From the NCBI RefSeq assembly GCF_009914755.1, contig NC_060947.1: a DNA stretch of 64,000 nt. One strand, written 5' to 3'. Origin of the DNA: the human T2T-CHM13v2.0 reference genome, Homo sapiens. Shown in pieces: positions 30,778 through 63,729 of this stretch; positions within the stretch are counted from its first letter, which is position 1; each line of letters opens with the position of its first letter. Below the pieces are notes generated by a model. The model saw nothing but the letters and a program-made list of their open reading frames with translations. It did no database searches and was not told the origin of the DNA. The position numbers and the translations under genes were made by a program.

Positions 30778-30927
30778 CTGGACTCTGCAAAAATATGTAG
30801 TTGCAGGAATGAGACCTTTAACTTCATAGCTCAAGCAAGGGCCTGTGTAAATCAAGTGCACTGATTTTTCAATTTGTCCACACTCTAGCCTGTAATCAGT
30901 GATTTCAGCACCATTGCACACAGGAAT
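30778..30927 (-). pseudogene. FNDC3CP: FNDC3CP exon, open frame (IPVCNGAEITDYRLECGQIEKSVHLIYTGPCLSYEVKGLIPATTYFCRVQ)
   Basis: 150 nt, cag/gt boundaries; aligns to FNDC3A VPLSNGTDVTEYRLEW...SYEIKGLSPATTYYCRVQ. Confidence 0.92.
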
Positions 30928-31796: not shown

Positions 31797-32867
31797 AAAA
31801 GTTTTTTTTTTTTTAAAGCTTCATTAACTTATAGCCACATTTCTTATGTGTCATACTGTATAGTTACATGCAAGCAAACATGACCAGAGATTTCCCAATG
31901 AAGCTTTAAAAAATGCTAAGTTCTATAAATTGATTTAACTTTATCTCTTATTTTAGTTTTAAAAATTAAATTAGTGACCTATTGATATTCTACTTGGTTT
32001 TCCAAATGTATTACTTTCCTCAAATATAGGCTCTGTAGGGCAGGATTAGTATTGCTATAGCCTTCCTAATACCATTAGTATTACGTTCTAGGTGTGTTCC
32101 AGAAACCATGATCCAAGATTTGTGAGATTCTAATTCTAAACTCTGACTCCTTAGGGAGTTCCAGAGTTTCCAAAAAAGGTTCTAAAAAAATTACTGTGCT
32201 TTTATAATAATCATAAGTTAATAACAATACATTGATAACATACTCCCCAACTAACAACAGCACAGTTTGGACCCTTTCAGGTTAGTACAGGTGTACCACA
32301 TTGAGAAGGAGGGCCTGGGACTGATGGCGGTTTCACACTTCATTGAAAGATCCAAACTACAAACAAACAAATAAGCAAACATACAAATGATTGTGCAGGC
32401 ATGATCACTTCCCACCTTGACGGGAAGTAGCAGCATATATCCATCCAAAGTGAAATGGACTACAAATGGGACAACTTAACAATATAACTTCTCTATCCCT
32501 ATTTGCTGTTTTTAACTAGAAACTGTGGATTCTACGGGAATTAATTTACTCAATCTGTATTTCACGTCAGAGCCAGGGTGCCCTTGTGTGTCATCTTGGT
32601 TACCGTTTGCTTTTTTGACATATACAAGTTCTTCAGGGTTTCCATTAGCAAGATAATTGTCTATAAAAATATACAAAATCAAACTTAAAGTATTTTGTAA
32701 ATAGTTTTAAAGGTGCTTCTCTAGAATTATACAAAATAATTTGAGAAGACTGTTAAAACAAAGTAACAGAAGACTCAAAATGTAGTAATTTGTGTCAATT
32801 AATTTTTAAATTTTATTTACAGACTTCAAAAAAATTTGTGGTTTCAATTACTAAGTAAGAAACAACT

Positions 32868-33175
32868 GGCCAGGCTCGGTGGCTCCTGCCTGTAATCTCA
32901 GTGCTTTGGGAGGATGAGGTGGGAGGATCACTTGAGGCCAGGAATTCATGACCAGCCTGGGCAACAAAGTGAGACCCTGTTTCTACAAAAAATAAAAAAT
33001 GTAGCTGGATATGACAGTGGATGCCTGTAGTCCCAGCTACTCAGGAGGCTGAAGAGGGAGGTTTGCTTGAGCCCAGGGGTTCAAGGCTGCAATGAGCTAT
33101 GATTACTGTCAGTGCACTCCAGCTCGGGTGACAGAGTGAGACCCGGAGTCTAAAAAATGAACAAAGTAAAAAATG
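32868..33175 (+). mobile_element. Alu (AluJ-like)
   Basis: Dimeric Alu; TSD-like aaacaa(c/t)tggc. Confidence 0.88.
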
Positions 33176-33703
33176 AAACAATTGGCTGACCAATATTTGA
33201 TTATATTCTAAAAGAAAATCACTGGTTCTGCTTTAGTATCATTTAATATATAAAAAACCAAAAGTTACAAAACAGGAAATGTAGGCTTAGTCATACAAAT
33301 CACACAAAGAAGCCTCACTGCATAGGAGATTGGTTTCTCTGGACTTTGTCTTACCATTCAAGGGTGGAGGACAGCAAGATGCAGGAGAAAGAGTAGGTGT
33401 TTGAATAGTCAATATATCTGAAGGCTAAGAGAAAGAAAAAATACCTTATGACTGTACTGATTCAAGTTCAGTTTTGTAAAACATTTAGTAATATGATACA
33501 GCTCATTTCAGTCTTCAATTTAAAATGTTTTCCATCCTTCTTTTCTCACCTGTCTGGCCTATAAGTGAGGTATAAAAGACTCTCAGTTTATATGCAGTAT
33601 CATGTTGCAGGTGATTATGTAGAAATTCCTTTGTTGCCACTGTAAATTATGTTTCAGAGATTCACTGAAGGGATAAAAGCAAATTTATTCAATTTATTTA
33701 TAG

Positions 33704-34010
<307 letters not shown>

Positions 34011-34184
34011 TTGCTTATAAATGTTACCGGTTTCCATGATATCTCATGTATATACTAAGAATAACAATTTTGGAAATGAAGTTGGTCCAGTTATCTATTT
34101 CAATAGTAAAATAATATATGCCCCGTGAATTAACCATAAAATCGTAAGATATCAGTCAGTAAACATGATTTATTACTAAAAACT

Positions 34185-34390
34185 GCAGAAATTCAAGTAA
34201 TTTCTCGGGTTTAGGTGATAGTATTATCTCAATGCCAATTTCCTAGTTTTGATCATTGTACTATGGTTATGTAAAATATTAATCTTAGGAGAAGCTGAGT
34301 GAAGATTTTACATGGGAACTCTCTATACCTTTTTTTTTTTACAACTTCTAGTGAGTCTAAAATTGTTTCAAAATAAAATATTTTTAAAAA
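34185..34390 (+). mobile_element. Old L1 (L1MC-type) 3' end
   Basis: ttttgatcattgtactatggttatgtaa...gggaactctctata...gtctaaaattgtttcaaaataaaa. Confidence 0.65.
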
Positions 34391-35080
34391 TCATGATGCC
34401 TTACCATCTGAATTTTCACTAACTTCTAAACTGTAACTTGAAATGTATGTTCCACCATTATCTTTGGATGGTTCTGAAAAGAGAAATAAAATCAAAATTA
34501 TTCTTGAATAAACTTAAAAGTCTCCCACTGGAATGTTATCTCATGAGTTAAGAAACATTTTTCACAGAGGAAAAAATATAAACATGAAACAATAGTGTAT
34601 TAATAACCACATATTAATAAAGATAATAAAAACATAATTCGAGTTACATGTTTGGAATATTAGAAATGAAGCATTTAAATAAATATTGTAAAGTTATTTG
34701 CAAGAGATTGAAAAGCTAAGTATATGTGCCATAAAGTTGATTTCTCTAGTTTAGAGAGAAAATAATTTGTATGAATATAATTTCTTAAGCTGACATTTAT
34801 CATTGATGTGGCCTTCTAATTGTGGCCTCCATATTAGATGTAATCTTATTTAAGGACACATAAAGCTCAATAATGTGTTCATTTGCAAATTAATGAGATA
34901 GCAAGAGAGAACTAGAAAAATAATATAGTTTACAACTAAACTCATTTATATGGCAGAATATCTCACATATAAATGACTAAAAGAACATTTTATAAAGCTG
35001 AGGACAATGAGAGGAAGATTTCTTCTCAATAGTTAATATTAAGACAGAGGGAAAATTTTAAATACAAAAACATTACTTAC

Positions 35081-35219
35081 TCCATCCAATTTTTACACTG
35101 TGTGCATGGACCTTTCCCTTTATATATGGTTTTCTAGGGGATCCGGTTTTATCTGGACAGGTTGTATATTTTACTTCTCCACTGCTGTTGCTTCTTCCTT
35201 CCATATTGCAGGCAAAGAT
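35081..35219 (-). pseudogene. FNDC3CP: FNDC3CP exon, open frame (IFACNMEGRSNSSGEVKYTTCPDKTGSPRKPYIKGKVHAHSVKIGW)
   Basis: 139 nt, cag/gtaagt; aligns to FNDC3A ...EFTTCPDKPGIPVKPSVKGKIHSHSFKITW. Confidence 0.92.
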
Positions 35220-35529
35220 CTGTTTAAATAAAAGAGGATGATATGGTTGACCATTGCAAATAAACGTCTGATTTGAAAATGTTCAGTTTGCAAATATAAA
35301 GTAAGTTGAGTGAGCATTTCTAAGAACTAAATGCAAAATAAGGTTTGATTTCAAACAAAATATACTCATTTCTCTGGTGAAAAGTATAATTTTATATTAA
35401 AATATGACACAAATTTATAAAGTATAGCCACATACCCTTGTATGTAGTACTTCTCTGAAGACTTCTTGTAGTGCATGAAAGGTCTTCTCCATTGTATTTC
35501 GGCTTAAAATCTAAACCCTAGAAATACAA

Positions 35530-35750
35530 TGAACTTTGGAACTGGGCAAGCCTGCATTACAACTTCAACTTATTTTCCATCTGGGTGATTCTGAGCAAGT
35601 CCCTTAGTCTCTCTGAACTTCAGTTTCTCTATATAAAAAATGGAGATAATTTCTACTTTGACGGCCTCATTCCTTTGGGGGGATTTAATGAGATAATGAA
35701 TGTGAAAGCACTTAGCACGTTACTTGCAACATAGAACACTTCTCAACATT
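35530..35750 (+). mobile_element. MIR
   Basis: tctctctgaacttcagtttctc...aaaatggagataat...aatgagataatgaatgtgaaagcacttagcac. Confidence 0.75.
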
Positions 35751-37416
35751 TATCTACTTTATGTAAACTGTGGTAAAATATACATAATGTAATTTACAGC
35801 TGCTTTACAAATTTACCAGCCTATTCAGTACAGACTTGAAAGTTCAGGATGGAATGAAATAGTTGCCCACCCTTATCAGGAATCCAGTTATATGAACAAA
35901 GGGTAGAAATATGTTGAGGTGCTGAAGATTTATGTGACTATGCAAGATTGTCTGGTATAGGCCCAAAGTTAAAAACTAACACGCTTCTCTGAGTCTCTAT
36001 GCTATTGTTATGGCTGCTGCTGCTTCTAGCTAATTTGCAGAGACTTGAGTACTTTTAGATCTTTCTGTGCAGAATTGCCTAACCCCAGCTCCGCATTGGC
36101 CCCATCAGGAACACAGGAAGTCGGGAATCACGCAATTCCTGGCCCAACCTTGGCTCTGCATTGGCTCCCTGCAGAACACAGGGACTTGGGAATCATGCAA
36201 TTCCTGAATGAATCGATTGAGTAGAAAGCAAATTGATTAAATTAAAAATCTTCTCAAGTGCGGAATCCATATAACATATACCTAAAACTGAGGTTGAAGA
36301 TTAAAGCATATGAAAGAAAAGCTTACAGATCCTGCTTCCTCCATTTCTAGTACATAAGTAGGAGTGTCATTTGGGTTTGTGTTGGGGCACACCAGTCTAC
36401 TGACAACAGATTCCTTTCCTGCTTCTTTTAGCTTAGGAGGTGGAGGTGTTGCAGGCATAGTTCCTGATGTATGGAAGACTGCTATTTAACTGAAATCACT
36501 GAAGAATAGATTAAGATGGAAAATTAGTCTCAGATTCTTATTGAAGTATAGACTTAAATATTGTAAATATTTAAATATACTTCAAGCCAAAGTTGTTTCT
36601 GGTAGCTAATCTGAATGAGTATTTTGTAGAAATACTCAGTTCAATTATCTTGTGCTGTTTCATGGTACTCATATAGCAACTTTTGAAGTCTTCACCTTTG
36701 CCTTTAATAATAGACACAAAATACTAGAATATCATAAAATGCTACAGTTAACAACAAAAATTCATCATAACATTAATAATCATCCACAAACAAGTGCTTT
36801 TTAAAAATAAAACTGTATACTTCATCCCATTCCAAAAGGAAGCTGTTTATTTTGGAACGATTATCATTGAAACCCTAAAAATGTTTTTAAAAAGTCATGA
36901 GGGGCTGTTTTTACATGGAATACATATATATATGCTAAATACATGTATGCATATGTATATAAATTTAAAGCTATATGTTACTCTAAAATTAATCTGCTTA
37001 TATTTTATGAAGCAATCCAGATTTTAAAGCTAAAACGCACTTTTTACACTCTACAAGACATCCTTAGATTCTATGTGTTGTTATGTTTTCCAAATTGTAT
37101 ACAATGAAAAAAATTGGAACTTAAGCAAATTGAGAGGTAAATTTATTGGTAACTACAATGATAAATAATTAAGTTGTAGAAATCGATACTCCAACTTTTA
37201 TTAATTATTGAAATTCTTACAAACATTTCTCAATTTTCCTTGATGCTTGGTATATAGAAGGGAAAGATTATTATGAATAATACAAAGTGCTAGGGAAATA
37301 AGTCGGATGAGGCATGCATCATTCTATACAATTTAGGACACTGTAGGAAGAGTATTTTTAAATTATAAAAACATGATCAGGTGCTTTTGATAGTAAAATC
37401 CTTACTTTCCACTGTA

Positions 37417-38708
37417 AATTCAGGCTGCTCTTGGATCTGTTAATGAGTCTGGGTGCAAGTGGAGGGTCCAGTTTGCATCTTGGGGTTATGAAACTAACCA
37501 CTTCAAACACAGTTGTGTGTTCTGAGCCTCTTATGGTTGTTACTCTAAAAATGTAATGACAATTGTAAACTTTCAAATATTTATCCTAACATACATGATA
37601 AATTGCAAACTTGGGTTTCAGACATATTTCCTATGAGCTAAGTATAAGAAATTTACTAATAAAAATTTTCTAATAGAGCAAAGTTGAGTCCCTGCAAATA
37701 ATGATTCTCAAAGCACTCTTACCTGTTCCAAATGAAAGAAAATGAACTAATGCTAGATATTGAGGAGGCTATTTTGAAGCTTGAAGGCAAGGTCACTTTG
37801 TTGGCAAATAGTAAGGCAGACTGAAGGAATTATAAGTAGTAACTGATACAGACTGGAGAGTCTGGGGGATATGGGGTGGTGTACTTTGTTTAGAATGAAG
37901 TTCTTACCTTAAAAACTAGGCCATGGATGGTTGTAGATCAACTAGGGTAAATGTAACTCCATCACCACTGTGAAGATAATCTTTGTTTACAATGGATCTC
38001 ACACATATTTAAAAGCTAAGTAAGCAGTGCTAATCGTATATATTCAACTGACAAAAAAAGAGAAGCACAATTGAAATTTGGATAACTTTAACCCATTTTA
38101 TGTGCATGCAAGATAGTGATTTAATAATTCATTACACTTTATTTGCATACCAAATTAATCCAGCTTTAAGAAATGAAATTTTACTATTTTACCATTGCGC
38201 ATTCTTCACACTGTAATAGTGCAGACTTCCCTTCAACTAGTTTATTTTAAATAATATAGATATGAAAAGCCTCAAAGAAACCATGAATCATGAAATTTAT
38301 TCATTCAGTCACCAAGAAAAATTTTCCTGGGGTGGGCACCTATCTGCTACAATGAATAGAGTGACTGCTCCCAAACAAATGCCTTCCTGAGCAAACAATC
38401 ACAAGTACCTAGGTGTGTTCTACCACCTTAAGAAACTCCTTCAGGCTACAGACTCTAAAATGTCCTCCAAAAAAAGGTAAAAAGATTGATACTTCCAAGC
38501 ACAGGCCACTCAGGGTGACCAGAGGTATCGGAAATAATATTTTCAATTAAAAATAATAATTTTTATAAAGTGCATAATACCAGACAAATACCACCATGCA
38601 AATTCATACAAAAGTCAATTTTACAAATAGCTTTTCATCACGTTACACTTTCCCATCCCCCTATCCAATATAGAAGGTTACAGATTGTAATACTTAGACT
38701 TAAAAATT
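37417..38708 (-). repeat. Left arm of 1,292-bp inverted repeat
   Basis: Base-by-base reverse complement of 61289-62580; 10 substitutions and no indels seen. Confidence 0.97.
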
Positions 38709-40390
38709 AATCTTTTGTCCATTCAACCTGGAAGTTTTCTGCTTATATAAATTAAGTATGAATGCAATAGGCTTCCTATCAATCTGGCTTCTAGGAACAC
38801 CATGATTAATTAGCCAATGGCAGAGCTCTACATTAGTCAGACTATTCTGATTGCTGCTTTGCCTCTGCTGTCCATTATGGTACCTACATCTACCTTGCCT
38901 TTGACAGCTGAGTGCCACCACTTGGCCCCTGCCACCTCAGGATCCAATTATTCCCATTGTACTTAAATTTTGTAGTTGAGTGACTGCAGTTCCCACTGCT
39001 AGATCTGACATACAGAGAAAAGCAATTACAGGGCTCTTCAAAGATGCAGGTGCTGCCCTCACAAATCTATTTTGCAAGGCATTGGTCAAGGATATATCTT
39101 CTGGATCCTCCCAGCTGGGATGAGTAGGTCTAAAGTGACTAATCCACTCCACCATCCCAATATCCCTAAGATTTTGGATCCCATCCTCTACATTAAACCA
39201 AGGGAGATCAGGCATTTCCAGCTTGCTCACAGTGGGCCATCTTTTAATCCATATTTCAGCTAACAAAGCAAATAGACTATTAGAACCTTTTCTATCTCCC
39301 TGAGCTGCAACATTAAATGCAGAATCCCTACTTACTGGGCCCAAATTAATACATTCAGCCTCATCCAAGTCTATGTTCCTTCCATCATTATCCCACATCC
39401 TTAATATCCATTCCCATTCCTGTTATCCAGATTTCCACTTATATAGATTAGAAAACTCAAGCAGTTTTTTTTGAGTGTAGTGCACCTCCAAATGGGTCAC
39501 ACTCTGAACCTCACCTCTAGGGGCCTGCTGGGACTTTAGTTATATGTCTAGAAGCAAACAGGGATGTTGGGGGTGGCTCCTGAGGAAAATAAACATTATT
39601 TTGTCTGGCAGCTACCTTACGGGAGGCCATCACTGTTGCCTCAGGCAGTGAAGGGTTTATCTCAGACAAAGATGGAAAGTCTGATGGCAGCATGGGTTGG
39701 GGAGGGGATGTTGCCACGACTAGGGGTGGAGAAGCTGTTCCTTCTGGCAAAAAAGGTTCATCAGAGTTTATAAGCTCAGTGTCCCCAGCTTCATCAGAGT
39801 CCCTGTTCCAAGTTGCATGGTCTCATTCTTTTCCAATCAATACCCTCACTTTAACAGTAGACACATGGCAAGGCTGTGCATGCACCTTTCATTTCAGGTC
39901 AGCCACTCACATGATAGGAGCTTGTATCTGTTTTTCCACAATTTTAGCTCTTTCTCTACAGAAGATAATACTCTCACTCAGGGCAATCTGAACAAACTTG
40001 AGGCTCAGTAACTGCTTCTGAAGCCAGGAGTTAGAATCCCTGAATTCATCATTTTCTTTCATCACTTTGTCCAGTGAGCTTAGGAGCAACCAGCCAACTT
40101 CATTATGTTCCTTGGTTCTCCACATATAGTGAAAGGTATTATGTATAGAGTCACTAAACTCCTTACCTCTCATGAGTGGTGAATCAGGAGTGTCAAATGC
40201 ATTATTTTGCATAACTCTCTAAACAGTTCATGCCATGGACTCTCAGTGTTCTCCATACTATTAGAAGTAGAGTCCTTAGCATTTTGGGGTCTAATCATAT
40301 TAAGCAGCCAACTCCAGAAACCCCCAAATCAATGAAAGAACTCCATCCTTAATATTCTGATACTCTAGAACCACTCCTGGTAACAAAATC
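38709..40390 (-). mobile_element. HERV-L internal 5' part (PBS, leader, decayed gag), truncated at the inverted-repeat arm
   Basis: gag-like ORF fragments 38937-39398 and 39907-40212; directly follows the MLT2A LTR. Confidence 0.85.
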
Positions 40391-40551
40391 TATATTACTC
40401 AGAGTTCTATAGAGGTATAGAACTATTAGAATATATATATACTAATATATATATACTAATATATATACTAATATATATACTAATATATATACTAATATAT
40501 ATATACTAATATATATACTAGTAAATATATATATACTAATATACATATATA

Positions 40552-40603
<52 letters not shown>

Positions 40604-40991
40604 TTTATTAAGTAGTATTAACTCACACGATCACAAGGTCCCACAATAGGCCATCTGCAAGCTGAGGAGCAAGGAAGCCAGTCTGAGTCCCAAAGCTGAA
40701 GAACTTGGAGTCTGATGTTCGAGGGCAGGAAGCATCCAGCATGGGAGAAAGATGTAGTCTGGGAGGCTAAGCCAGTCTAACTTTTTCACGTTTTTCTGGC
40801 TGCTTCACATTCTGGCTGGGCTGGCAGCTGATTAGATGCTGCCCACCACCCAGATTAAGGGTGGGTCTGCCTTTCCCAGACCACTGACTCAAATGTTAAT
40901 CTCCTTTGGCAACACCCTCACAGACATGCCCAGGATCAATACTTTGCATCCTTCAATCCAATCAAATTGACACTCAGTATTAACCACCACA
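40391..40991 (-). mobile_element. MLT2A (HERV-L 5' LTR) with expanded TA-rich tract
   Basis: Reverse complement starts tgtggtggttaatactgagtgtcaatttgattggattg; characteristic internal (TA)n. Confidence 0.9.
40430..40600. repeat. (TATATACTAA)-like minisatellite plus (TA)n
   Basis: Directly visible. Confidence 0.95.
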
Positions 40992-41224
40992 GTGAGTGAG
41001 TTCTCACATTTGTTCATTTAAAAGTGTGTGGCATCTTCCCTACCCACTCTCTTGTTTGCTCCTGCTTTTGCCATTTGATGTGCCTGCTCCACCTTCACCT
41101 CCTGCCATTGTAAGCTTCCTTAGGCCAACCTAGAAGCCTAGCATATACCAGAACCATGCTGCCTGTAAATCCTGCAGAACAGTAAGCCAGTTAAAACTCT
41201 TCTCTTTATAAATTACCCAGTCTC
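40992..41224 (+). mobile_element. MST-family MaLR LTR fragment
   Basis: tttaaaagtgtgtggca...ctttataaattacccagtctc. Confidence 0.75.
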
Positions 41225-44990
<3,766 letters not shown>

Positions 44991-45519
44991 CTATATTTTG
45001 GATGTTAATTTTGTTTACATTCAGAAAACCAAAATATCCTTTAGTTATTAGGATCTCATTTAAAGGCTAGAGAATAGCAACCACAACAACAAATTTTGGT
45101 GTTCTGTAGCTTCAGTTCTCAACTGAAAGGAATTTTATCCTTCATGTACTTATCCCTACATATTCTGGTTCTCCATCTAAGCTGCCTCTTAAAATCGTGA
45201 ATAAATGAATTTCATGCAAAATATGTATACCACATAATTTTTTCTAGTTGCCTGCTAGTAAAAAGATTGTGAGTTATTCTACAGTCCTAACGAGTTAACA
45301 TGATTTTATTGAAACTGGGGACTTTTGTTAAAATTTGTTTAATAGTATATCCTTTAGACTACCCTCGCATTTTAAATATTTTAATGTTAGTTGCTATTAG
45401 GTGTTTGGAAGAACTCTTGGTGATTATGTATTTATAGTTGCATAACAGACATCTAACTCCTTTCCCTTGTTTTTGCCAATGTAATATTTTGTTTTGGGTT
45501 GCTCTTTTTTTACTTTTAG

Positions 45520-45570
45520 AGCAAAGCAGAAAATGGAAACTCATGTTGTTTCAACATTGGGAAACCTGTA
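45520..45570 (+). pseudogene. FNDC3CP: FNDC3CP exon on the opposite strand (...CCFNIGKPV)
   Basis: tttag acceptor, gtaagt donor; ends like FNDC3A LLSNIVKPV / FNDC3B ILSGIEKPQ. Confidence 0.75.
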
Positions 45571-45881
45571 GTAAGTAATTAAAGTGCATATTTAAGTATT
45601 CTTTTTAATTTGTCAGTGTAAAACATACACATTCTCTACTACAGTTTTAATTTCAAGCTTTACCTGGTTAAAACTTTGATAATCTCCTTTAGCAATTCAA
45701 TAAGTAAGGATCAAGTGTGACATTGTTAAAAATAAAATTAATGGTCCATTGTTTAATCACAGTATTTAAGCACCTAATATGAGGAGAACAATATGCTTAG
45801 CATCAAATAAGACTTAAAGACTGCATCATAACTTACAGAGTATAATTTTTAAGTATGCTACTTGAATTTTTGTTATTTTAG

Positions 45882-46023
45882 GTTTCTGATAGTCAAACAA
45901 GATCTGCTGTTATTTCAGGGACTCTACATGGTTCTGAGATGTGTGACCATACTAAATCTCCTATAACATTGAATTGGCAATATCTAACCGTGGTAAAAAT
46001 GGAAAATATAATAACATATATAA
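45882..46023 (+). pseudogene. FNDC3CP: FNDC3CP exon on the opposite strand (VSDSQTRSAVISG...ELAISNRGKNGKYNNIY), frameshifted, donor lost
   Basis: tttag acceptor; aligns to FNDC3B VSNIQARAVVLSW...YEVALSDKGRDGKYKIIY. Confidence 0.85.
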
Positions 46024-46874
46024 GAAGGTTTCTTTTAAATCATATCTTATTTCTTATAATTCAATTCAAATATGCTATCTAAACATATAAACCCCAACTT
46101 ACACCTACTCTGAGTTCTAAAGTTCTGTAATTTTTTTCCCAACTGAATGCATTTTTCTACAGAAATAGTTTTCCAAATAGTGGTAGGTCGCCAGGCCAAG
46201 CCACAAAATTCACTGGATCAGAAGTAGATTAGAGCTGAGGGGGGCCTTAAATATCAACTGGTCCATTTTCTTTAGTTTGCAGACTTCCTATTAGGTAAGT
46301 TTAGACTCAAGGAAGGAAAGACTCTTCCATATCCTCCTTTTCATTTTCCACTTAGGTCATTTTAGGGAAAAATAAAATTTCCCATGATGGTAGGCCTTTG
46401 GGTACACAAGTGAGGTATTTACACTGCAATGGAAATTTAAGACTTTGGCTCTCCTGGGAATTTCATTATAGGAGCTAGTTATAAGTTGGAGGCTATAGTC
46501 ATAGTAAGATGAGCTTAGAAATGTGCTCAAAGATAGAAACAAGTTGGGGGCAGGGATACAGTGGAAGACACAGCAAGAGCACACCCAGCCACTCCTAATA
46601 GCTTCTGCATTGCAGAGTTATGTACAATCTGAAAGACAGCAAGCTGAGAGAGGCACAGTAGGAAAACAAAAAAAAATCCCAAGTGGGGAAGAAGGAGAAA
46701 TTCCTATTCCCACCAAACAACTAGCTAATAAGTAAGTCAGAGATTGTGGAGTTGTCTGTACTCTACCTTAACAAACACAATATCCTCAACTTTTTTTTTG
46801 CTAGAATTTGTCATCTTTATTTAGAGGCTCAAAGTGAAAAACTTGAATGTAATTGGTTATATGTTGTATAAAGT

Positions 46875-47572
46875 TTTATTTCTTTTTTTAAGTTTTAAGT
46901 TTAGGGGTACAAGTGCAAGTTTATTACATAGGTAAACTTGTGTCATGGGGGTTTGTTGTACAGATTATTTCATCATCCAGTTATTAAGCCTAGTATCTAT
47001 TATTCTTCCTGATCCTCTCCCTCCTCTCACCCTCTATCCTCCAAAAGGTGCCAATGTGTAGTTTCCCTCAATGTGGCCCTGTGTTCTCATCATTTAGCTC
47101 CCACTTATATGTGAGATCATGTAGTATTTGTTTTTCTGTTCCTGCGTTAGTTTGCTAAAGATAATGGCCTCCAGCTCCATCCATGTCCCTGCAACGGACA
47201 TAATCTCATTTTTTTTTTTTGGCTGCATAATATTCCATGGTGTATATGTACCACATTTTAAAAATCCAGTCTATCATTGATGGGCATTTAGGTTGATTCC
47301 ATATCTTTGCTATTGTGAATAGTGCTGCAGTGAACATACGTGTGCACATGTCTTTATGATGGAATGATTTATATTCCTTTGGGTATATACCCAGTAATGG
47401 GATTGCTGGGTCAAATGATATTTCTGTTGTTAGCTCTTTGAGGAATCACCACACTGTCTTCCACAATGGCTGAACTAATTTACACTCTCACCAACAGTGT
47501 ATAAGCATTCCTTTTTCTCCACAACCTTGCCAGCATCTGTTATTTTATGACTTTTTAATAATAGCCATTCTG
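46875..47572 (-). mobile_element. Older L1PA 3' fragment; continues at 61194-61260 after the L1PB insertion
   Basis: L1PA 3' UTR; sequence resumes after the TSD. Confidence 0.8.
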
Positions 47573-49360
47573 GATCATCATGGTGGATGGGAGGCAGGAC
47601 TAGATTGCAGCTTTGGACAGAGCAGCATACGGATGCTCGCACTGTGAAATTTAGCTCCAGATCAACTGCAAAAACAAACCAGCAGAGGACCCACAGACCC
47701 TCTGAAGGAAGCCGACTTCTCCTGTAGGACTCTTGAGACACACCAAATACTGTGAGTGCCCCAACTGCAGAAGTGGGACAGGGAGAGCCTCCTTTCCCGA
47801 ACACACACCCCCACTGGAGAAACTGAAGCTCTGTTTGTGGGAGAAGTTTCTGGTCCTACCTGGAGCTGAGTCAATTTAGGGAGTTGAGCAAAATACAGGG
47901 GTAGAGGAGGCAGCAGAAAGGCCCTGGGAGCTCCCTGGGTCCCCAAGCAGGCCATTCCTGCCTGGCACCGCAGGGATCCATGGGGAGGGCAGCCAGAGGA
48001 ACAGGGCATAAAACTCCACAAGGAGAAGAAAATCTCTAGCTGAACTGTATAACAATTTGAAGGAGGAGAGAAGCCTCCTGGACACAACTCCAGGGAAGGT
48101 GCAAATACGGTATGCAGACATCACAGGCAGGGGAAAAACCAAGCCGTTTCCTTTCGCAGCTGGGAGGAGGATAGCCTGGGGCAAGTTTTCAAGCCTGGCT
48201 TGCCCACCGCCTGGAAACAGACCCTGGGCTGTTGGGGGTGGAGCACGGTAGGAGTGAGACGGGCCCTTCAGTTTGAATGGGAGCTGGGTGAGGCCTGTGA
48301 CTGCTGGCTTTCCCCACTTCTCTAACAACCTGTATGACTCAGCAGAGGCAGCCATAATCCTCCTAGGTACACAACTGCAGTGACCTGGGAATCTCACCCC
48401 CCATCCCCCACAGCAGCCGCAACAAGACCCACCCAAGGAGAATCTGAGCTGAGGCACACCTAGCCCTGCCCCCACCTGATGGTCCTTCCCTACCCACCCT
48501 GGTATCAGAAGACAAAGGGCATATAATCTTGGGACTTTTAGGGTCCCACCCACCGCAGGTCCCTCTCCATACTACCACAGCTAATTGCTCTCTGGAAAGT
48601 GCCACCTCCCAGCAAGAGGCAAACCTGCACAAAAATAGAGTATTAAACACCAAAGCTAAGAACCCTCATGAAGTCCACTGCACCCCCTCCCCACAATGTC
48701 CACAAGAACGGCACGGGCATCCACAGCTGAGAAACCCATAGACAGTTCATATCACAGGACTCTGTGCAGACAACCCCCAGTACCAGCCCAGAGCCAGGTA
48801 GACCTGCTGGGTGGCTAGACCCAGAAGAGAGACAACAATTACTGCAGTTCGGCTCACAGGAATCCACATCCATAGGAAAATGGGGGAGAATACTACATCA
48901 AAGAAACACACAGTGGGACAAAAAAAATCTTAACAGCCTTTAGCCCTAGAACTTCCCTCTGACAGAGCCCACCCAAATGAGAAGGAACCAGAAAACCAAC
49001 CCTAGTAATATGACAAAACAAGACTCGTCAACACCCCCAAAATATCACACTAGTTCACCAGCAATGGATGCAAACCAAGAAGAAATTCCTGATTTACCTG
49101 AAAAAGAATTCAGGAGATTGGTTATTAAGCTAATGAGGGAGGCAGATGAGAAAGGCAAAGCCCAATGCAAGGAAATCCAAAAAAGAAACAATACAAGAAG
49201 TGGAGAGAAATATCCAAGGAAATAGATAGCTTAAAGAAAAAGGCCGGGCATGGTGGCTCACGCCTGTAATCCCAGCACTTTGGGAGGCTGAGGCGGGTGG
49301 ATCACAAGGTCAGGAGATCGAGACCATCCTGGCTAACACAGTGAAACCCTGTCTCTACTA

Positions 49361-49663
<303 letters not shown>

Positions 49664-51773
49664 CTAATCCAACAAAGACAAAGAAAAAAGAATAAGAAAA
49701 TATGAACAAAGCCTCCAAGAAGTCTTGGATTATGTTAAATGTCCAAACCTAAGAATAATCAGTGTTCCTGAGGAAGAAGAGAATTCTAAAAGCTTGCAAA
49801 ACGTATTTGGGAGAATAATCAAGGAAAACTTCCCAGTCTTGCTAGAGATCTAAACATCCAAATAGAAGAAGCACAAAGAACACCTGGGAAATTAATTGCA
49901 GAAAGATCATCAGCTAGGCACATTGTCGTCAGGTTATCCAAAGTTAAGACGAAGGAAAGAATCTTAAGAGCTGTAAGACAGAAGCACCAGGTAACCTATA
50001 AAGGAAGACCTATCAGATTAACAGCAGACTTCTCTGCAGAAACCCTACAAGCTAGAAGGGTTTGGGGCCCTATCTTCAGTCTCCTCAAACAAAACAATTA
50101 TCAGTCAAAAATTCTGTATCCAGCACTAAGCATCAAATATGAAGGAAAGATAGAGTCTTTTTCAGACAAACAATGGCTGAGAGAATTCGCCACTATCAAA
50201 CGACCACTACAAGAACTGCTAAAAGGAGCTCTAAATCTTGAAACAAATCCTAGAAACACATCAAAACAGAACCTCTTTAAAGCATAAATCACACAGGACG
50301 TATAGAAGAAAAATACAAGTTAAAAAAACAAAACAAAAAAAGCGAAGTACACAGGCAACAAAGAGCATGATGAATGCAGTGATACCTCAGATTTCAATAA
50401 TAACATGGAATGTAAATGGCCTAAATTCTCCACTTAAAAGATATAGAACTGCAGAATGGATAAGAACTCACCAACCAACTATCTGCTGCCTTCAGAAGAC
50501 TCACCTAACACATCAGGACTCACATAAACTTATAATAAAGTAGTGGAAGAAGACATTTCATGCAAATGGACACCAAAATCAAGCAGGGGTAGCTATTCTT
50601 ATATCAGAAAAAAACAAACTTTAAAGCAACAGCTGTTAAAAGAGACAAAGAGGGACATTATATGATAGTAAAAGGCCTTGTCCAACAGGTAAATATCACA
50701 ATCCTAAACATACATACACCTAACACTGGACCTCCCAAATTTATAAAACAATTACTAATAGACCTAAGAAATGAGATAGATAGCAACACAATAATAGTGG
50801 GGGACTTCAATACTCCACTGACAGCACTAGACAGGTCATCAAGACAGAAAGTCAACAAAGAAACAATAGATTTAAACTATACCTTGGAACCAATGGATTT
50901 AACAGATATATACAGAACATTTCATCCAACAACCACAGAAAACACATTCTATTCAACATCACATGAAATCTTCTCCAAGATAGATCATACGATGGGCCAT
51001 AAAACGAGCCTCAATAAATTTGAGAAAATTGAAATTATATCAAGCAGTCTCTCAGACCACAGTGGAATAAAACTGGAAATTAACTTCTAAAGGAACCTTT
51101 GAAGCCATGCAAATACATGGAAATTAAATAACCTGCTCCTGAATGAGCATTGGGTCCAAAACGAAATAAAGATGGAAATTAAAAAATTCTTTAAACTGAA
51201 CGACAATAAGGACACAACCTACCGAAACCTCTGGGATATAGCAAAGGCAGTGCTAAGAGGAAAGTTCATAGCCATAACTGCCTACATCAAAAAGACTGAA
51301 ATAACACAAACTGACAATCTAAGGTCACACCTCAAGGAACTAGAGAAACAAGAACAAACCAAATCCAAACCCAGGAGAAGAAATAACCAAGATCAGAGCA
51401 GAACTAAATGAAATTCAAACAAAAAAAATTACAAAAGATAAATGAAACAAAAAACTGGTTCTTTGAAAAGATAAATAAAATCGATAGACCATTAGCAAGA
51501 TTAACCAAGAAAATAAGAGAGAAAATCCAAATAAACTCACTAGGAAACGAAACAGGAGATATTACAATTGACACCACTGAAATACAAAAGATCATTCAAG
51601 GCTACTATGAACACCTTTATGCACATAAACTAGAAAACCTGAAAGAGGTGGATAAATTTCTGGAAAAATACAACCCTCCTACCTTAAATCAGGAAGAATT
51701 AGATACCCTGAACAGGTATCTAATCTTAATAACAAGCAGTGAGATTGAAATGGTAATTTAAAAATTACCAACA

Positions 51774-52135
51774 TGCAGCCATAAAAAAGGATGAGTTCAT
51801 GTCCTTTGTAGGGACATGGATGAAGCTGGAAACCATCATTCTGAACAAACTATTGCAAGGACAGAAAACCAAACACCACATGTTCTCACTCATAGGTGGG
51901 AATTGAACAATGAGAACACCTGGGCACAGGGTGGGGAACATCACACACTGGGGCCTGTCGTGGGGTAGGGGGAGGGGGAAGAAAAAGCATTAGGAGATAT
52001 ACCTAATGTAAATGATGAGTTAATGGGTGCAGCACACCAACATGGCACATATATACATATGTAACAAACCTGTACGTTGTGCACATGTACCCTAAAACCT
52101 AAAGTATAATAAAAAATAATAAAAAAATAAAAAAA
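51774..52135 (+). mobile_element. Short 5'-truncated L1PA 3' end
   Basis: TSD taaaaattaccaaca and A-rich tail. Confidence 0.88.
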
Positions 52136-53930
52136 TAAAAATTACCAACAAAAAGAAGTCCAGGACCAGATGGATTCACAGCAGAATTCGACCAGACATT
52201 CAAAGAAGAATTGGTACCAATCCTTTTGACACTATACCATAAGACAGAGAAAGAAGAAACTCTCCCTAATTCATTCTACAATGCTAAAATCCTTAACAAA
52301 ATACTAGCAAACCAAACCCAACAACATATCAAAAAGATAATCCACCATGATCAAGTGGGTTTCATAACAGGGATGCAGGGATGGTTTAACATACACAAGT
52401 CAATAAATGTGATACACCACATAAACAGAATTAAAAACAAAAATCACATGATCATCTCAATAGATGCAGAAAAAGCATTCAACAAAATCTAGCGTCCCTT
52501 TATGATTAAAACTCTCAGCAAAATTGGCATGCAAGGGACATACCTTAATGTAATAAAAGCCATCTATGACAAACCCACAGCCAACATGATACTGAATGGT
52601 GAAACATTGAAAGCATTCCCACTGAGAACTGGAACAAGACAAGGATGCCCACTCTCACCACTCCTCTTCAACGTAATACTGGAAGTCCTAGCCAGAGCAA
52701 TCAGACAAGAGAAAGAAATAAAGGGCATCCGAATCAGTAAAGAAGAAGACAAACTGTCCCTATTTGCTGACAATACGATTGTGTTCCTTAAAAACCCTAA
52801 GGACTCCTCCAGAAAGATCCTAGAACTGATAAAAGAATTCAGCAGAGTTTCCAGATACAATATTAATGTACACAAATCAGTAGCTCTTCTATATACCAAC
52901 AGCGACCAAGTGGAGAATCAAATCAAGAACTCTACTTCTTTTACAATAGCTGGAAAAAATAAAATGCTTAGGAATATACCTAACAAAGGAGTCAAAAGAC
53001 CTCTACAAGGAAAACTACAAAACACTGCTGAAAGAATTCATAGACACAACTAAATGGAAACACAACCCATGCTCATGGATGGGTAGAATCAATATTGTGA
53101 AAATGACCATATTGCCAAGAGCATTCTACAAATTCAATGCAATCCCCATCAAAATACCATAATCATTCTTCACAGAATTAGAAAAAAAATTCTAAAATTC
53201 ATAAGGAACTAAAAAAGACCCCTCGTAGCAAAAGGAAGACTAAGCAAAAAGAACAAATCTGGAGGCACCACACTACCTGATTTCAAACTATACTATAAGG
53301 CCATAGTCACGAAAACAACATGGTACTGGCATAAAAATACATGCGTAGACCACTGGAACAGAATAGAGAACCCAAAAATAAACCCAAATACAGCTAACTA
53401 ATCTTCGACAAAGCAAACAAAAAACATAAAGTGGGGAAAGGACTACCTTTTCAACCAAATGGTGCTGGGATAATTGGCTAGCCATATGCAGGAGAATGAA
53501 ACTGGATCCTCATTTCTCACCTTATACAAAAATCATCTCAAGATGGATTAAGGACTTAAACCTAAGACCTGAAACTATAACAATTCTAGAAGATAACATT
53601 GGAAAAATCCTTCTAGACATTGGCTTAGGCAAGGATTTCATGACCAAAAACCCAAAAACAAATGGAATAAAAACAAAGATAAATAGCTGTGACCTAATTA
53701 AACTAAAGAGCTTTTGCACAGCAAAAGGAAGAGTGAGCAGAGTTAACAGACAACCCACAGAGTGGGAGAAAATCTTCATAATCTATACATCTGACAAAGG
53801 AATAATAACCAGAATCTACAATTAACTCAAACGAATCAGAAAAAAAACAATCCCATCAAAAAGTGAGCTAAAGACAAGGACAATCCTCAAAAGAAGATAT
53901 GCAAATGGCCAACCACGTATGAAAAAATGC

Positions 53931-60082
<6,152 letters not shown>

Positions 60083-60774
60083 GACATTTTTGAAGAATAA
60101 ATATACATAAATAAGTCAGGGAAATTCAAAAGTAGAAAAGCCATCAGGAGATTTGTGCTTTCCTAGATATTGAAATTTATAATGCTAGAATAACTAAAAC
60201 TCTTAGGCGTGGAAATAAGTATACACACAGAGAAATGAAACAGAACCAACGTTCATGAATGGATAAAAATAAAACAGATATTTAATAAATGTGAAATTCC
60301 ATATCCATGAGGAAAATGTGGGTTATTCAATAAGAGGTATTGGGACAATGAAATTTAACATCTTTAAAAATTAGAAAAGAAAAAATGCTCAACATCACTA
60401 AATATCAGGGAAATGCAAATCAAAACCACAATGCAATATCACCTTATTCCTGCAAGAATGGCCATAATCAAACAATCAAAGAACAGTAAACGTTGGCACG
60501 GATGCAGTCATCAGGGAACACTTCTACACTGCTGGTGGTAATGTAAAGTGGTACAGCTGCTATGGAAAACAGTGCAGAGATTCCTTAAAAACTAAAAGTA
60601 GAACTACCATTTGATCCAGCAATCCCACTACTGGGTATCTACCCAGAGGAAAAGAAGTCATTATACGAAAAAGATGCTTGCACATGCATGTTTATAGCAG
60701 CACAATTCACAATTGCAAAATCGTGAAACCAACCCAAATGCCCATCAGTCAATGAGTGGATAAAGAACTGTGGT

Positions 60775-60778
<4 letters not shown>

Positions 60779-60814
<36 letters not shown>
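60779..60814. repeat. (TA)n microsatellite
   Basis: Directly visible. Confidence 0.95.
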
Positions 60815-60819
<5 letters not shown>

Positions 60820-61288
60820 AATACTACTCAACCGTAAAAAGGAATGAATTAGCACCATTTGCTGTGACCTGGATGAGACTGGAAACTATTATTCTAAGTG
60901 AAATTACTCAGGAATGGAAAACCAAACATTGTATGTTCTCACTGTTATGTGGGAACTAAGCTATGAGGATGCAAAGGCATAAGAATGATATGATGGACTT
61001 TGGGGACTTGGGTGGAAAGAGTGGGAAGGGCCAAGGGATAAAAGACTACAAATATGGTGCAGTGTATATGGCTTAGGTGATGTACGCACCAAAATCTCAC
61101 AAATCACCACTAAAAAATTTACTCATGTCACCAAATACCACCTGTACCACAACAACTTATGTAAAAATAAAATTTAAGAAACAAAAACAATAAAATAATA
61201 GCCATTTTGACTGGTGTGAGATGGTATCTCATTGTGGTTTGATTTGCATTTAATGATCAGTTTTATTTATTTTATAACTAGCAGCTAA

Positions 61289-62580
61289 AATTTTTAAGTC
61301 TAAGCATTACAATATGTAACCTTCTATATTGGATAGGGGGATGGGAAGGTGTAACGTGATGAAAAGCTATTTGTAAAATTGTCTTTTGTATGAATTTGCA
61401 TGGTGGTATTTGTCTGGTATTATGCACTTTATAAAAATTATTATTTTTAATTGAAAATATTATTTCCGATACCTCTGGTCACCCTGAGTGGCCTGTGCTT
61501 GGAAGTATCAATCTTTTTACCTTTTTTTGGAGGACATTTTAGAGTCTGTAGCCTGAAGGAGTTTCTTAAGGTGGTAGAACACACCTAGGTACTTGTGACT
61601 GTTTGCTCAGGAAGGCATTTGTTTGGGAGCAGTCACTCTATTCATTGTAGCAGATAGGTGCCCACCCCAGGAAAATTTTTCTTGGTGACTGAATGAATAA
61701 ATTTCATGATTCATGGTTTCTTTGAGGCTTTTCATATCTATATTATTTAAAATAAACTAGTTGAAGGGAAGTCTGCACTATTACAGTGTGAAGAATGCGC
61801 AATGGTAAAATAGTAAAATTTCATTTCTTAAAGCTGGATTAATTTGGTATGCAAATAAAGTGTAATGAATTATTAAATCACTATCTTGCATGCACATAAA
61901 ATGGGTTAAAGTTATCCAAATTTCAATTGTGCTTCTCTTTTTTTGTCAGTTGAATATATACGATTAGCACTGCTTACTTAGCTTTTAAATATGTGTGAGA
62001 TCCATTGTAAACAAAGATTATCTTCACAGTGGTGATGGAGTTACATTTACCCTAGTTGATCTACAACCATCCATGGCCTAGTTTTTAAGGTAAGAACTTC
62101 ATTCTAAACAAAGTACACCACCCCATATCCCCCAGACTCTCCAGTCTGTATCAGTTACTACTTATAATTCCTTCAGTCTGCCTTACTATTTGCCAACAAA
62201 GTGACCTTGCCTTCAAGCTTCAAAATAGCCTCCTCAATATCTAGCATTAGTTCATTTTCTTTCATTTGGAACAGGTAAGAGTGCTTTGAGAATCATTATT
62301 TGCAGGGACTCAACTTTGCTCTATTAGAAAATTTTTATTAGTAAATTTCTTATACTTAGCTCATAGGAAATATGTCTGAAACCCAAGTTTGCAATTTATC
62401 ATGTATGTTAGGATAAATATTTGAAAGTTTACAATTGTCATTACATTTTTAGAGTAACAACCATAAGAGGCTCAGAACACACAATTGTGTTTGAAGTGGT
62501 TAGTTTCATAACCCCAAGTTGCAAACCGTACCCTCCACTTGCACCCAGACTCGTTAACAGATCCAAGAGCAGCCTGAATT
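61289..62580 (+). repeat. Right arm of 1,292-bp inverted repeat
   Basis: Reverse complement of 37417-38708 (paired coordinates sum to 99997). Confidence 0.97.
62030..62580 (+). pseudogene. FNDC3CP: Duplicated FNDC3CP exons (62030-62089 and truncated 62453-62580) in the right inverted-repeat arm
   Basis: Reverse-complement copies of 37908-37967 and 37417-37544. Confidence 0.92.
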
Positions 62581-63207
62581 AAAAAAAAAAAAAAGAAGTA
62601 TGCTGTAATAGCAAAAAAAAAAAAAAAAAAAAGAGTATATGCAGAGGCAAAAAAATTTTTACTTATATTGCTGCCATTAAATATCCTCATCCTTCCCCCC
62701 CAAAAAAAGAAAAGGTTTTTTTTCTCTCTTGAGGTTCACAGATTAGACAGAAATTTTTTGTGGGAATTATGCAAGAGTTGAAAGACCAAACAATTAAGAT
62801 GGTATGTGAGAAAAATCTTGTCTGTGGTAGAATTAACTAAGTAATAAAAATAAATATAGAAAACAATAGGGTACAGAGTGAATTAGGTTAGGGAATGAAT
62901 TGGAAAAAAATCTGAAGTCAATTCTTTGTTTTGGCCACCAGATGATAATAGCAGGCCCAAGAGTAAGGGTGGAGGACTATGTGCAGGGTACAAGCCAGAA
63001 CTCGGGAAATACCTACATTGATTGCCTTATTTGTTTTATTTCTAAATGCCCTTCCTTAGAAGAAAAACTTACCTTTGCAACTTCAGGGGAGGCAGGTGGA
63101 TGGCAAAGGAAAGATACTGTACATTCCACACAATCGCAGAACAAGCAAATCACAGAATAGATGCTCAATATATGATAACATAATAAACATTTACAAAATA
63201 ACTTCAT

Positions 63208-63300: not shown

Positions 63301-63729
63301 TACTACTGCTACTATTTTTATTATTTGCTTTCTTTGATTAAAACTCCTGCAATACTCTCAGAAGTCATGTGTAAATAAAATAAGCATGCATCCATCCCTA
63401 TGAGTTATAAAGATGAAATTTGACTGCCCAACCTAATTAGAGATTGTCTTATTGTAGATGTCCAGCTTTAAACTGGTCTAGACAGTTTAAACTGGTGTCC
63501 TGGTATCTAGTCATCTAGACACCACTGTTGCAACACAGTATATTGCTAATTATTCACAAATGTTGATTCATCCCAAGAGATATACCAAATGGTCTTCTTG
63601 TCCTCAGTACTGTATGCAACAACTATGTCTGAATTTTACCCTCAGATATGAAGCTCTGTTTTGTGTTTCATCTTGTGGGGTTTTTTTCAGAACAGAGAAG
63701 GAGTTGATCTTTCTATGTTAATGCACCCA

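What the first reader, a model, noticed from the sequence alone, without database searches (positions are those of the whole stretch)
61289..62580. Inverted-repeat arms are homogenised in the core and diverged at the edges: possible recurrent inversion toggle
Seen by manual comparison: mismatches at 61305, 61314, 61348, 61382 (first ~95 bp) and 62485, 62519, 62527, 62529, 62553 (last ~96 bp), but only one (61599) in the central ~1,100 bp. At the edge each arm keeps part of the likely ancestral peptide (PRCKLDP vs PSCKPYP; FNDC3A has SCEPD). Inference: the duplication is old (edge divergence ~5%) and the core has been overwritten by arm-to-arm gene conversion or crossover, so the inversion may be polymorphic or recurrent today.
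Basis: partly seen in the sequence, partly recalled or inferred. Interest (0 to 1): 0.85.

Follow-up and report, generated by a model that had tools for sequence, protein, structure and literature searches.

The report
Old inversion repeat with homogenised core
Two 1.3-kb inverted copies of a piece of the dead FNDC3C gene on the human X chromosome bracket a 22.6-kb segment that was flipped long ago; their middles have since been copied onto each other while their ends kept the old differences, a textbook pattern with no sign so far that the flip still varies among people.

Summary
Nine lie in the outer 191 bp (4.7%) and one in the central ~1,100 bp (0.09%); P about 3e-7 to 3e-6. Homology stops sharply at both ends, and these are the only two copies in CHM13.

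New here: mapping lemur FNDC3C1 protein onto the region shows that the human pseudogene is scrambled. Arm A continues into the downstream exons on the minus strand. The exon that should precede the arm's exons lies inside the spacer on the plus strand, collinear with arm B. So the spacer is inverted relative to the gene's 3' half, and the arms sit where that inversion's breakpoints are expected. The 5' exon block, beyond arm B, is inverted as well.

Forty-four orthologues show derived changes on both arms at the exon edge. That fits an old duplication (roughly 10-45 Myr) whose core was recently overwritten by arm-to-arm gene conversion. Crossover alone cannot homogenise arms.

A T2T-based catalogue with 44 genotype columns has no inversion call here, so a present-day polymorphism is not supported. 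This is ordinary concerted evolution at an ancient inversion breakpoint.

The parts
37417..38708 (-). Arm A of the inverted repeat (FNDC3C sense is the minus strand). Its outer end runs on into the rest of exon Eb, a GT donor and the downstream exons.
61289..62580 (+). Arm B of the inverted repeat (FNDC3C sense is the plus strand). It ends 11 nt before the end of exon Eb and abuts an A-rich tract.
61383..62484 (+). Homogenised core of arm B (partner 37513-38614 in arm A): 1,102 bp with a single mismatch at 61599/38398.
61289..61382 (+). Diverged intronic edge: 4 mismatches (61305, 61314, 61348, 61382).
62485..62580 (+). Diverged exonic edge: 5 mismatches (62485, 62519, 62527, 62529, 62553). 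All five change the encoded residue. By orthologue comparison they are derived partly in arm A and partly in arm B.
38709..61288 (.). 22,580-bp spacer. Its one FNDC3C exon is on the plus strand, so the spacer is inverted relative to arm A and the 3' half of the pseudogene.
45882..46021 (+). Exon Ec, the exon that immediately precedes Ea in lemur FNDC3C1. It has a frameshift and a ttttag acceptor on the plus strand, and lies 16 kb upstream of, and collinear with, arm B.
62031..62090 (+). Exon Ea copy in arm B (copy in arm A at 37907-37966, minus strand). Both copies share an in-frame stop codon.
62454..62580 (+). Truncated exon Eb copy in arm B. The full exon in arm A is 37406-37543 (minus strand), followed by GTAAGG.
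30778..36874 (-). Downstream FNDC3C exons (lemur residues 667-1079), collinear with arm A. RefSeq's FNDC3CP covers only 30778-35219.
63515..63631 (+). First detectable exon of the 5' block (residues 33-71). The block runs on the plus strand to window coordinate 68706, outside the window, so it is also inverted relative to the 3' half.
62581..62634 (+). A-rich junction (A14, 18 bp, then an A run of about 20) directly after arm B. This is the novel junction between arm B and the inverted 5' block. No polyadenylation signal is visible upstream in the arm.

Best explanation
The two arms are breakpoint duplicates of an ancient inversion that scrambled the X-linked FNDC3C1 gene, now the pseudogene FNDC3CP. 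Write the ancestral gene as a-b-c-d: a = 3' exons, b = the 1.3-kb piece holding exons Ea and Eb, c = the upstream intron with exon Ec, d = the 5' exons. CHM13 reads a, b, inverted c, inverted partial b, inverted d. Each arm keeps one ancestral neighbour: arm A joins the 3' exons and arm B joins exon Ec. That layout is expected either from an inversion made by staggered breaks, which duplicates the stretch between the nicks, or from a duplication followed by recombination between the copies. The arms then diverged for roughly 10-45 million years; the ~95 bp at each end still record this (4.7%). The interior, at least 1,102 bp, was later overwritten by non-allelic gene conversion: a break in one arm is repaired from the other. 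This took one long tract or several shorter ones, most recently within about the last 0.5-5 million years (1 difference in about 1,100 bp). The ends escape because strand invasion and heteroduplex formation need homology on both sides. Shown: the repeat, the heterogeneity in divergence, the exon order and strands, and derived states on both arms. Inferred: the mechanisms, the dates, and that the inversion breakpoints coincide with the arm ends. A crossover outcome of the same exchange would flip the spacer again. The one human catalogue I could read shows no such variant.
For: Repeat and mismatch positions. Sharp ends with no flanking homology. Only 2 copies in the 3.1-Gb assembly. Non-random mismatch distribution: (P = 2.9e-7 binomial; 3e-6 for the span statistic; edges 9/191, core 1/1101). 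Exon map from tblastn of lemur and other FNDC3C1 proteins against the window plus 120 kb to its right. It gives residues 667-1079 at 36874 down to 30778 (minus), Ea and Eb in arm A (minus) and arm B (plus), Ec at 45882-46021 (plus), and residues 33-534 at 63515-68706 (plus). Ec is the exon directly before Ea in four orthologues, with an acceptor site on the plus strand. Arm A's Eb runs on to a GT donor, while arm B stops 11 nt short. Polarisation with 44 orthologues: position 11, T ancestral in 21 of 44 including all three lemur-like top hits, arm B derived; position 25, P in 44/44, arm A derived; position 26, D in 44/44, arm B derived; position 34, I in 43/44, arm B derived; position 22, G in 44/44, both arms derived. 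So both arms carry private changes, as expected after long separate evolution. Aguado et al. 2014 (PMC3961182; passages read) document human inversions mediated by repeats as short as 1.6 kb (HsInv0347). [quoted passage not shown]
Against: No outgroup genome could be examined. That the inversion breakpoints coincide with the arm ends is therefore inferred from exon order alone; an unrelated inversion plus an independently inserted copy would look this collinear by chance about one time in four (my estimate). The 5' block is also inverted and abuts arm B. A single simple inversion does not explain the whole layout: two inversions sharing a breakpoint region, or one complex event, are needed. 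The paralogue outgroups FNDC3A and FNDC3B suggested the opposite polarity at position 34; I followed the 44 true orthologues. Private derived changes at the exon edge are uneven (arm A 1, arm B 3, one ambiguous), which leaves some room for extra mutation on the arm-B side at formation. The four intronic edge mismatches could not be polarised. The dates rest on 9 and 1 substitutions and on recalled mutation rates.
Confidence: 0.7

Rival explanations
1. One reading: the 22.6-kb spacer still toggles, so both orientations segregate in humans or recur frequently.
For: The core is nearly identical (1 difference in about 1,100 bp), so the arms have exchanged sequence recently. Repeats of 1.6 kb are known to mediate polymorphic human inversions (Aguado 2014). 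At least one flip has occurred historically.
Against: Porubsky et al. 2023, Table S1 (T2T-CHM13 coordinates, 44 genotype columns), lists no chrX inversion between 74.58 and 78.89 Mb, although it contains chrX calls of 3-21 kb. None of the 11 chrX predictions in Aguado 2014, Table 1, is at this locus. Full-text searches found 0 papers for FNDC3C1 + inversion and 0 for TAF9B + CYSLTR1 + inversion. Gene conversion does not require crossover.
Confidence: 0.1
2. Different origin, same later history: arm B began as an inserted inverted copy, for example an L1-mediated retrocopy of unspliced FNDC3C pre-mRNA or a templated insertion. Recombination between the two copies then inverted the spacer.
For: An A14 tract follows the sense 3' end of arm B directly. 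A 10-bp AAAATTTTTA match at 61287 and 62652 could be a target-site duplication. The final layout is identical to that of the staggered-break model.
Against: The copy ends inside an exon with no AATAAA-type signal upstream (sequence). The candidate target-site duplication is low-complexity, overlaps the arm, and lies 70 bp beyond the A tract. No matching duplicate was found at arm A's inner flank, where a recombination flip would have moved it.
Confidence: 0.3
3. The duplication is young (core age), and the edge mismatches arose at formation through error-prone synthesis near the breakpoints. No gene conversion is then needed.
For: Mismatches hug both breakpoints. At the exon edge, 3 of the 4 polarisable private changes are on arm B, the arm with the novel junction on that side.
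Against: Arm A, which keeps its ancestral neighbour at that edge, also has a private derived change (P to L) against 44/44 orthologues. Nine changes in 191 bp is very dense. The pattern is symmetrical at both ends although each arm has only one novel junction.
Confidence: 0.05
4. Assembly or polishing artefact: the core of one arm was overwritten by reads from the other arm.
For: None obtained here.
Against: The arms are 1.3 kb long and 22.6 kb apart with unique flanks. From general knowledge, that is far shorter than the reads behind this assembly. An artefact would not leave clean 95-bp diverged ends and one internal difference.
Confidence: 0.02

Closest known systems
Human polymorphic inversions mediated by short inverted repeats (e.g. 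HsInv0347 with 1.6-kb THE1C repeats; HsInv0209 with a 782-bp 99.9% patch inside 94% repeats; Aguado et al. 2014, PMC3961182)
   Same: A kilobase-scale inverted repeat pair brackets a segment of some 10 kb or more. A patch of near-identity sits inside more diverged repeats, at the place where exchange occurs.
   Different: Those inversions are shown to segregate in people. Here no second orientation was found in the one catalogue I could read. The arms here are unique gene fragments, not transposons or large segmental duplications.
Arm-to-arm gene conversion in X and Y chromosome palindromes (Rozen et al. 2003, recalled; Makova et al. 2024, PMC11168930, passages read)
   Same: Inverted arms on a sex chromosome are kept nearly identical by intrachromosomal gene conversion.
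   Different: Palindromes are defined there as arms over 8 kb at 98% identity or more, and they often carry testis genes. These arms are 1.3 kb of pseudogene intron and exon, and only the interior is homogenised.
Inversions with inverted duplications at the breakpoints from staggered breaks (Ranz et al. 2007, PMC1885836; seen only as a search listing)
   Same: Each breakpoint carries one inverted copy of a short unique stretch, and each copy keeps one ancestral neighbour.
   Different: That model was described in Drosophila. Here the single-copy ancestral state could not be checked, and a second adjacent block is inverted too.
Edge effect in concerted evolution of duplicated sequences (theory of Teshima and Innan, recalled, not looked up)
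   Same: Divergence is high near the boundaries of the duplicated unit and low inside, because conversion tracts cannot reach the ends.
   Different: Theory predicts a gradient under many events. Here there is a sharp step, which fits one or a few recent long tracts equally well.

Membership tests
Concerted evolution by non-allelic gene conversion with diverged edges | Divergence between copies is significantly heterogeneous: low inside and high at the boundaries | tested here: met
   9/191 against 1/1101; P = 2.9e-7 (binomial) and 3e-6 (span statistic)
Concerted evolution by non-allelic gene conversion with diverged edges | The only possible donor for each copy is the other copy | tested here: met
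   2 matches in the whole assembly
Concerted evolution by non-allelic gene conversion with diverged edges | Edge differences are old: both copies carry private derived states | tested here: met
   Arm A derived at 1 site, arm B at 3 and both at 1, of the 5 exon-edge sites, against 44 orthologues. The 4 intronic sites could not be polarised.
Concerted evolution by non-allelic gene conversion with diverged edges | Across species, copies group by species in the core and by position at the edges | not testable with these tools
   No primate genome was available
Recurrent (toggling) NAHR inversion polymorphism | A highly identical inverted repeat pair flanks the segment | tested here: met
Recurrent (toggling) NAHR inversion polymorphism | Both orientations are present among human chromosomes | tested here: not met
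   No call at chrX 76.60-76.63 Mb in Porubsky 2023, Table S1, with 44 genotype columns. This is one catalogue only, and rare alleles are not excluded.
Recurrent (toggling) NAHR inversion polymorphism | Independent flips on different haplotype backgrounds, or different orientations among apes | not testable with these tools
   The macaque supplement was unreadable.
Inversion with breakpoint duplication (staggered breaks) or duplication plus NAHR | The segment between the copies is inverted relative to the ancestral order | tested here: met
   Exon Ec is on the plus strand in the spacer, while Ea, Eb and the downstream exons next to arm A are on the minus strand
Inversion with breakpoint duplication (staggered breaks) or duplication plus NAHR | Each copy retains exactly one ancestral flank | tested here: inconclusive
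   Arm A's outer flank is shown to be ancestral: the exon continues to its GT donor and the next exons. Arm B's inner flank is supported only by collinearity with Ec, 16 kb away.
Inversion with breakpoint duplication (staggered breaks) or duplication plus NAHR | The duplicated stretch is single-copy in species lacking the inversion | not testable with these tools
   No outgroup genome
X-chromosome palindrome (arms over 8 kb, at least 98% identity) | Arm length over 8 kb | tested here: not met
   Arms are 1,292 bp. The definition is taken from PMC11168930.

The most novel reading that the evidence does not exclude
The inversion that created this repeat is the event, or part of a single complex event, that broke FNDC3C1 in the anthropoid lineage. 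The repeat would still be recombinationally active, so that the spacer's orientation differs among apes or exists as a rare human variant. That would make it a small natural flip-flop caught between two states.
Probability: 0.15. Interest if true: 0.5.

Novelty: new member of a known kind. Interest (0 to 1): 0.3.

Why it matters
The locus is a clean, small example of three textbook processes on one 25-kb stretch: an inversion that leaves inverted duplicates at its breakpoints, concerted evolution of those duplicates, and the escape of their edges from conversion. The diverged edges date the rearrangement and the core dates the last exchange.

It also shows that human FNDC3CP is not only decayed but scrambled into three blocks, of which the RefSeq annotation covers just one. 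I found no paper that describes this (0 hits).

If the orientation turned out to vary among apes or people, it would add a short-repeat case to the list of recurrent X-linked inversions. No functional gene is involved, so the medical or functional weight is low.

Tried and rejected
I listed 369 ORFs as a substitute but did not send them. I used orthologous proteins with local tblastn instead, which was far more sensitive.
- Whole-genome search with a full-length lemur protein failed twice, with a machine error. Exons outside the 184 kb I fetched were therefore not looked for. Residues 1080-1449 were not found in those 184 kb even at E = 5.
- Target-site duplication hunt around arm B and at arm A's inner flank: only low-complexity 7-10-mers turned up, which is not convincing.
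- Split transposons at the novel junctions: 38709-41200 and 62581-63520 are unique within the 184 kb, so this test was not possible.
- PRDM9-type 13-mer (motif recalled from memory): none in either arm; three elsewhere in the window.
- Exact 31-mer of exon Ea in bacterial and archaeal genome contigs, looking for stray primate contamination: 0 hits.
- Literature. Porubsky 2022 (Cell) and Porubsky 2020 (Nat Genet) are not held, and bioRxiv supplements are closed. The main texts of the 2021 preprint and of PMC13629690 do not mention the locus. The supplementary tables of the ape sex-chromosome paper gave number matches that I could not interpret without their headers. Paper reading closed before the ape-genomes paper could be searched.
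- Polarisation from the paralogues FNDC3A and FNDC3B was replaced by the orthologue-based one, because the two disagreed at one site.

Full report
**1. The observation**

The repeat finder lists an inverted pair at 37417-38708 and 61289-62580. It is 1,292 nt long, 99% complementary, with 22,580 nt between the arms. A base-by-base comparison gives 10 mismatches and no gap.

blastn with word size 7 on arms plus 1-kb flanks finds only the 1,292-bp match, so homology stops abruptly at both ends. A search of the whole 3.1-Gb assembly finds these two copies and no other.

Nine of the ten mismatches lie in the outer 96 + 95 bp (4.7%, Poisson 95% interval 2.2-8.9%). One lies in the central 1,101 bp (0.09%, interval 0-0.5%). 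The binomial probability is 2.9e-7 and Fisher's test gives 2.5e-7. Only 2 of the 10 mismatches touch a CpG.

**2. What the arms are**

In gene sense (plus strand in arm B, minus strand in arm A) the arm holds intron sequence, a small exon (Ea) and most of the next exon (Eb) of an FNDC3-type gene.
- Ea lies at 62031-62090 in arm B and translates as GDGVTFTLVDLQPSMA*FLR, with a stop codon shared by both arms.
- Eb starts at 62454 in arm B.
- In arm A, Eb continues 11 nt past the end of homology to ...LQWK, followed by GTAAGG.
- In arm B, homology stops inside the exon and an A14 tract follows.

The paralogous exons of FNDC3B (chr3) and FNDC3A (chr13) were recovered from the same genome. FNDC3A indeed reads SCEPD there.

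A protein search returned 44 FNDC3C1 orthologues. The named primates among them are only strepsirrhines (Propithecus, Prolemur, Otolemur); no anthropoid appears.

**3. The new fact: the pseudogene is scrambled and the spacer is inverted**

I ran tblastn with the lemur proteins against the window and against 120 kb fetched to its right. The map, in Propithecus residue numbers, is:

| Residues | Window coordinates | Strand | Block |
|---|---|---|---|
| 667-1079 | 36874 down to 30778 | minus | a (3' exons) |
| Ea, Eb | arm A | minus | b |
| Ea, truncated Eb | arm B | plus | partial b |
| about 553-600 (exon Ec) | 45882-46021 | plus | c (inside the spacer) |
| 33-534 | 63515-68706 | plus | d (5' exons, beyond arm B) |

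Exon Ec is the exon directly upstream of Ea in four orthologues (...VSDIQTRSAVIS...GKNGKYKNVYIG|DGVTFTL...). In the human sequence it has a ttttag acceptor on the plus strand and one frameshift. Residues 1080-1449 were not found.

With the ancestral gene written a-b-c-d from 3' to 5' along the window, CHM13 reads a, b, inverted c, inverted partial b, inverted d. Two conclusions follow.
- Arm A keeps its ancestral outer neighbour: the exon continues and the next exons follow. Arm B is collinear with Ec, 16 kb upstream on the same strand.
- The 22.6-kb spacer is therefore inverted relative to the gene's 3' half, and the arms sit where the breakpoints of that inversion are expected.

This layout has two known routes. 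One is an inversion made by staggered breaks, which duplicates the stretch between the two nicks (Ranz et al. 2007, PMC1885836; I saw only the search listing). The other is a duplication followed by recombination between the copies. The two routes give the same end state, and I could not separate them.

The A-rich tract after arm B and a weak 10-bp AAAATTTTTA match hint at a retro-type insertion. However, there is no polyadenylation signal, and the match is low-complexity and misplaced.

The inverted 5' block needs a second inversion that shares the breakpoint region next to arm B, or one complex event. No inverted repeat flanks that block: 62581-63520 has no match in the 184 kb examined.

**4. 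Age of the edges and polarity**

At the five exon-edge differences, the 44 orthologues give the following:

| Position in Eb | Orthologue state | Arm A | Arm B | Derived arm |
|---|---|---|---|---|
| 11 | T in 21 of 44, including the three lemur-like top hits | T | I | B |
| 22 | G in 44/44 | R | S | both |
| 25 | P in 44/44 | L | P | A |
| 26 | D in 44/44 | D | Y | B |
| 34 | I in 43/44 | I | V | B |

The distant paralogues had suggested the opposite polarity at position 34; I follow the orthologues.

A private change in arm A at an edge where arm A has its ancestral neighbour argues against the idea that all edge differences were made at the birth of the copy.

With a recalled substitution rate of about 1e-9 per site per year, 4.9% (Jukes-Cantor corrected) between the arms corresponds to about 24 Myr (11-45 Myr from the count interval). 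Halving the rate doubles these figures. The core's single difference corresponds to about 0.5-1 Myr, with an upper bound of about 2.5-5 Myr. These dates are rough.

**5. Mechanism**

A crossover between inverted arms exchanges flanks and flips the spacer, but leaves every arm-to-arm difference in place. Only gene conversion removes differences (logic, not a tool result). So the core was overwritten by non-allelic gene conversion.

If there was a single tract, it spans at least 1,102 bp. That is longer than the few hundred bp usual in mammals, according to the passage in Aguado et al. 2014. Several events, or one long tract, are therefore needed. The lone mismatch at 61599 may be a later mutation or a boundary between tracts.

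The ~95-bp edges escape because exchange needs homology on both sides of the tract (established knowledge, recalled). The same paper describes a 782-bp, 99.9%-identical patch inside 94%-identical repeats as the likely exchange site of HsInv0209, and a validated inversion with 1.6-kb repeats, HsInv0347. So the anatomy here is of a known kind.

**6. Is it polymorphic today?**

- The T2T-CHM13-based inversion callset of Porubsky et al. 2023 (PMC10150506; I read part 11 of Table S1 and searched the two text-held supplementary files) has 44 genotype columns. Its chrX calls jump from 74,579,335 to 78,894,644. No number beginning 765, 766 or 767 occurs on chrX. The arms lie at 76,607,417-76,632,580.
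- The table does contain chrX calls of 3-21 kb, so an event of 25 kb should have been visible.
- None of the 11 chrX predictions in Aguado 2014, Table 1, is at this locus.
- Full-text searches gave 0 papers for FNDC3C1 + inversion, 0 for TAF9B + CYSLTR1 + inversion and 0 for FNDC3C1 + pseudogene.

This argues against a common polymorphism. It does not exclude rare alleles or differences among apes.

Several sources could not be used.
- The macaque supplement could not be read.
- The gibbon supplement was only partly searched, with hg38 coordinates that I converted from memory.
- The ape sex-chromosome tables gave matches I could not interpret.
- Porubsky 2022 and Porubsky 2020 are not held.
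- Paper reading closed before the ape-genomes paper could be searched. Those supplements may bear on the claim.

**7. Verdict**

A historical inversion is now shown by exon order. The present-day toggle is not supported.

This is a new member of a known kind: concerted evolution with an edge effect, in a short inverted repeat at an ancient inversion breakpoint inside a scrambled pseudogene. It carries modest interest.

Noticed in passing
window 30778-36874, 37406-37966, 45882-46021, 62031-62580, 63515-63631 (and on to 68706, outside the window): RefSeq's FNDC3CP spans only 30778-35219. Recognisable FNDC3C exons extend well beyond it, in three blocks on two strands. The last 5' exon (67870-68706, plus strand) overlaps the start of the lncRNA LOC107985669 (68618 onwards), which may be transcribed from the remains of the pseudogene.
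   Followed up: partly
window 17528-23101 and 53941-60082: Two near full-length L1 elements lie in inverted orientation: 94% identical over 4,467 bp (17528-21992 against 60082-55623), continuing at 87% to about 23101/53941. This is a longer inverted repeat than the one under study. It encloses arm A and most of the spacer, so it is a second possible substrate for inversion. A third related L1 lies at 41226-44741.
   Followed up: no
window 62581-62661: The junction after arm B is unusual: A14, 18 unique bases, an A run of about 20, 16 bases, then A7T5. It lies between the truncated exon copy and the inverted 5' block. Its origin (filler, retro-type tail or fragile AT-rich site) is unexplained.
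   Followed up: partly
window below 30778 and the 120 kb to the right of the window: The exons for the last ~370 residues of FNDC3C1 (lemur residues 1080-1449) were not detectable even at E = 5. They are either deleted or lie elsewhere.
   Followed up: partly
one search hit list: Of the 44 FNDC3C1 proteins that contain this exon, the named primates are only strepsirrhines and no anthropoid appears. This fits loss of the coding gene in the anthropoid lineage, but it is only absence from a database.
   Followed up: no
window 23140-29760 and 47577-53742: Direct repeats of 82-87% identity in three collinear pieces. Each lies next to the 5' end of one of the inverted L1s. They are probably older L1 or other transposon copies and were not classified.
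   Followed up: no
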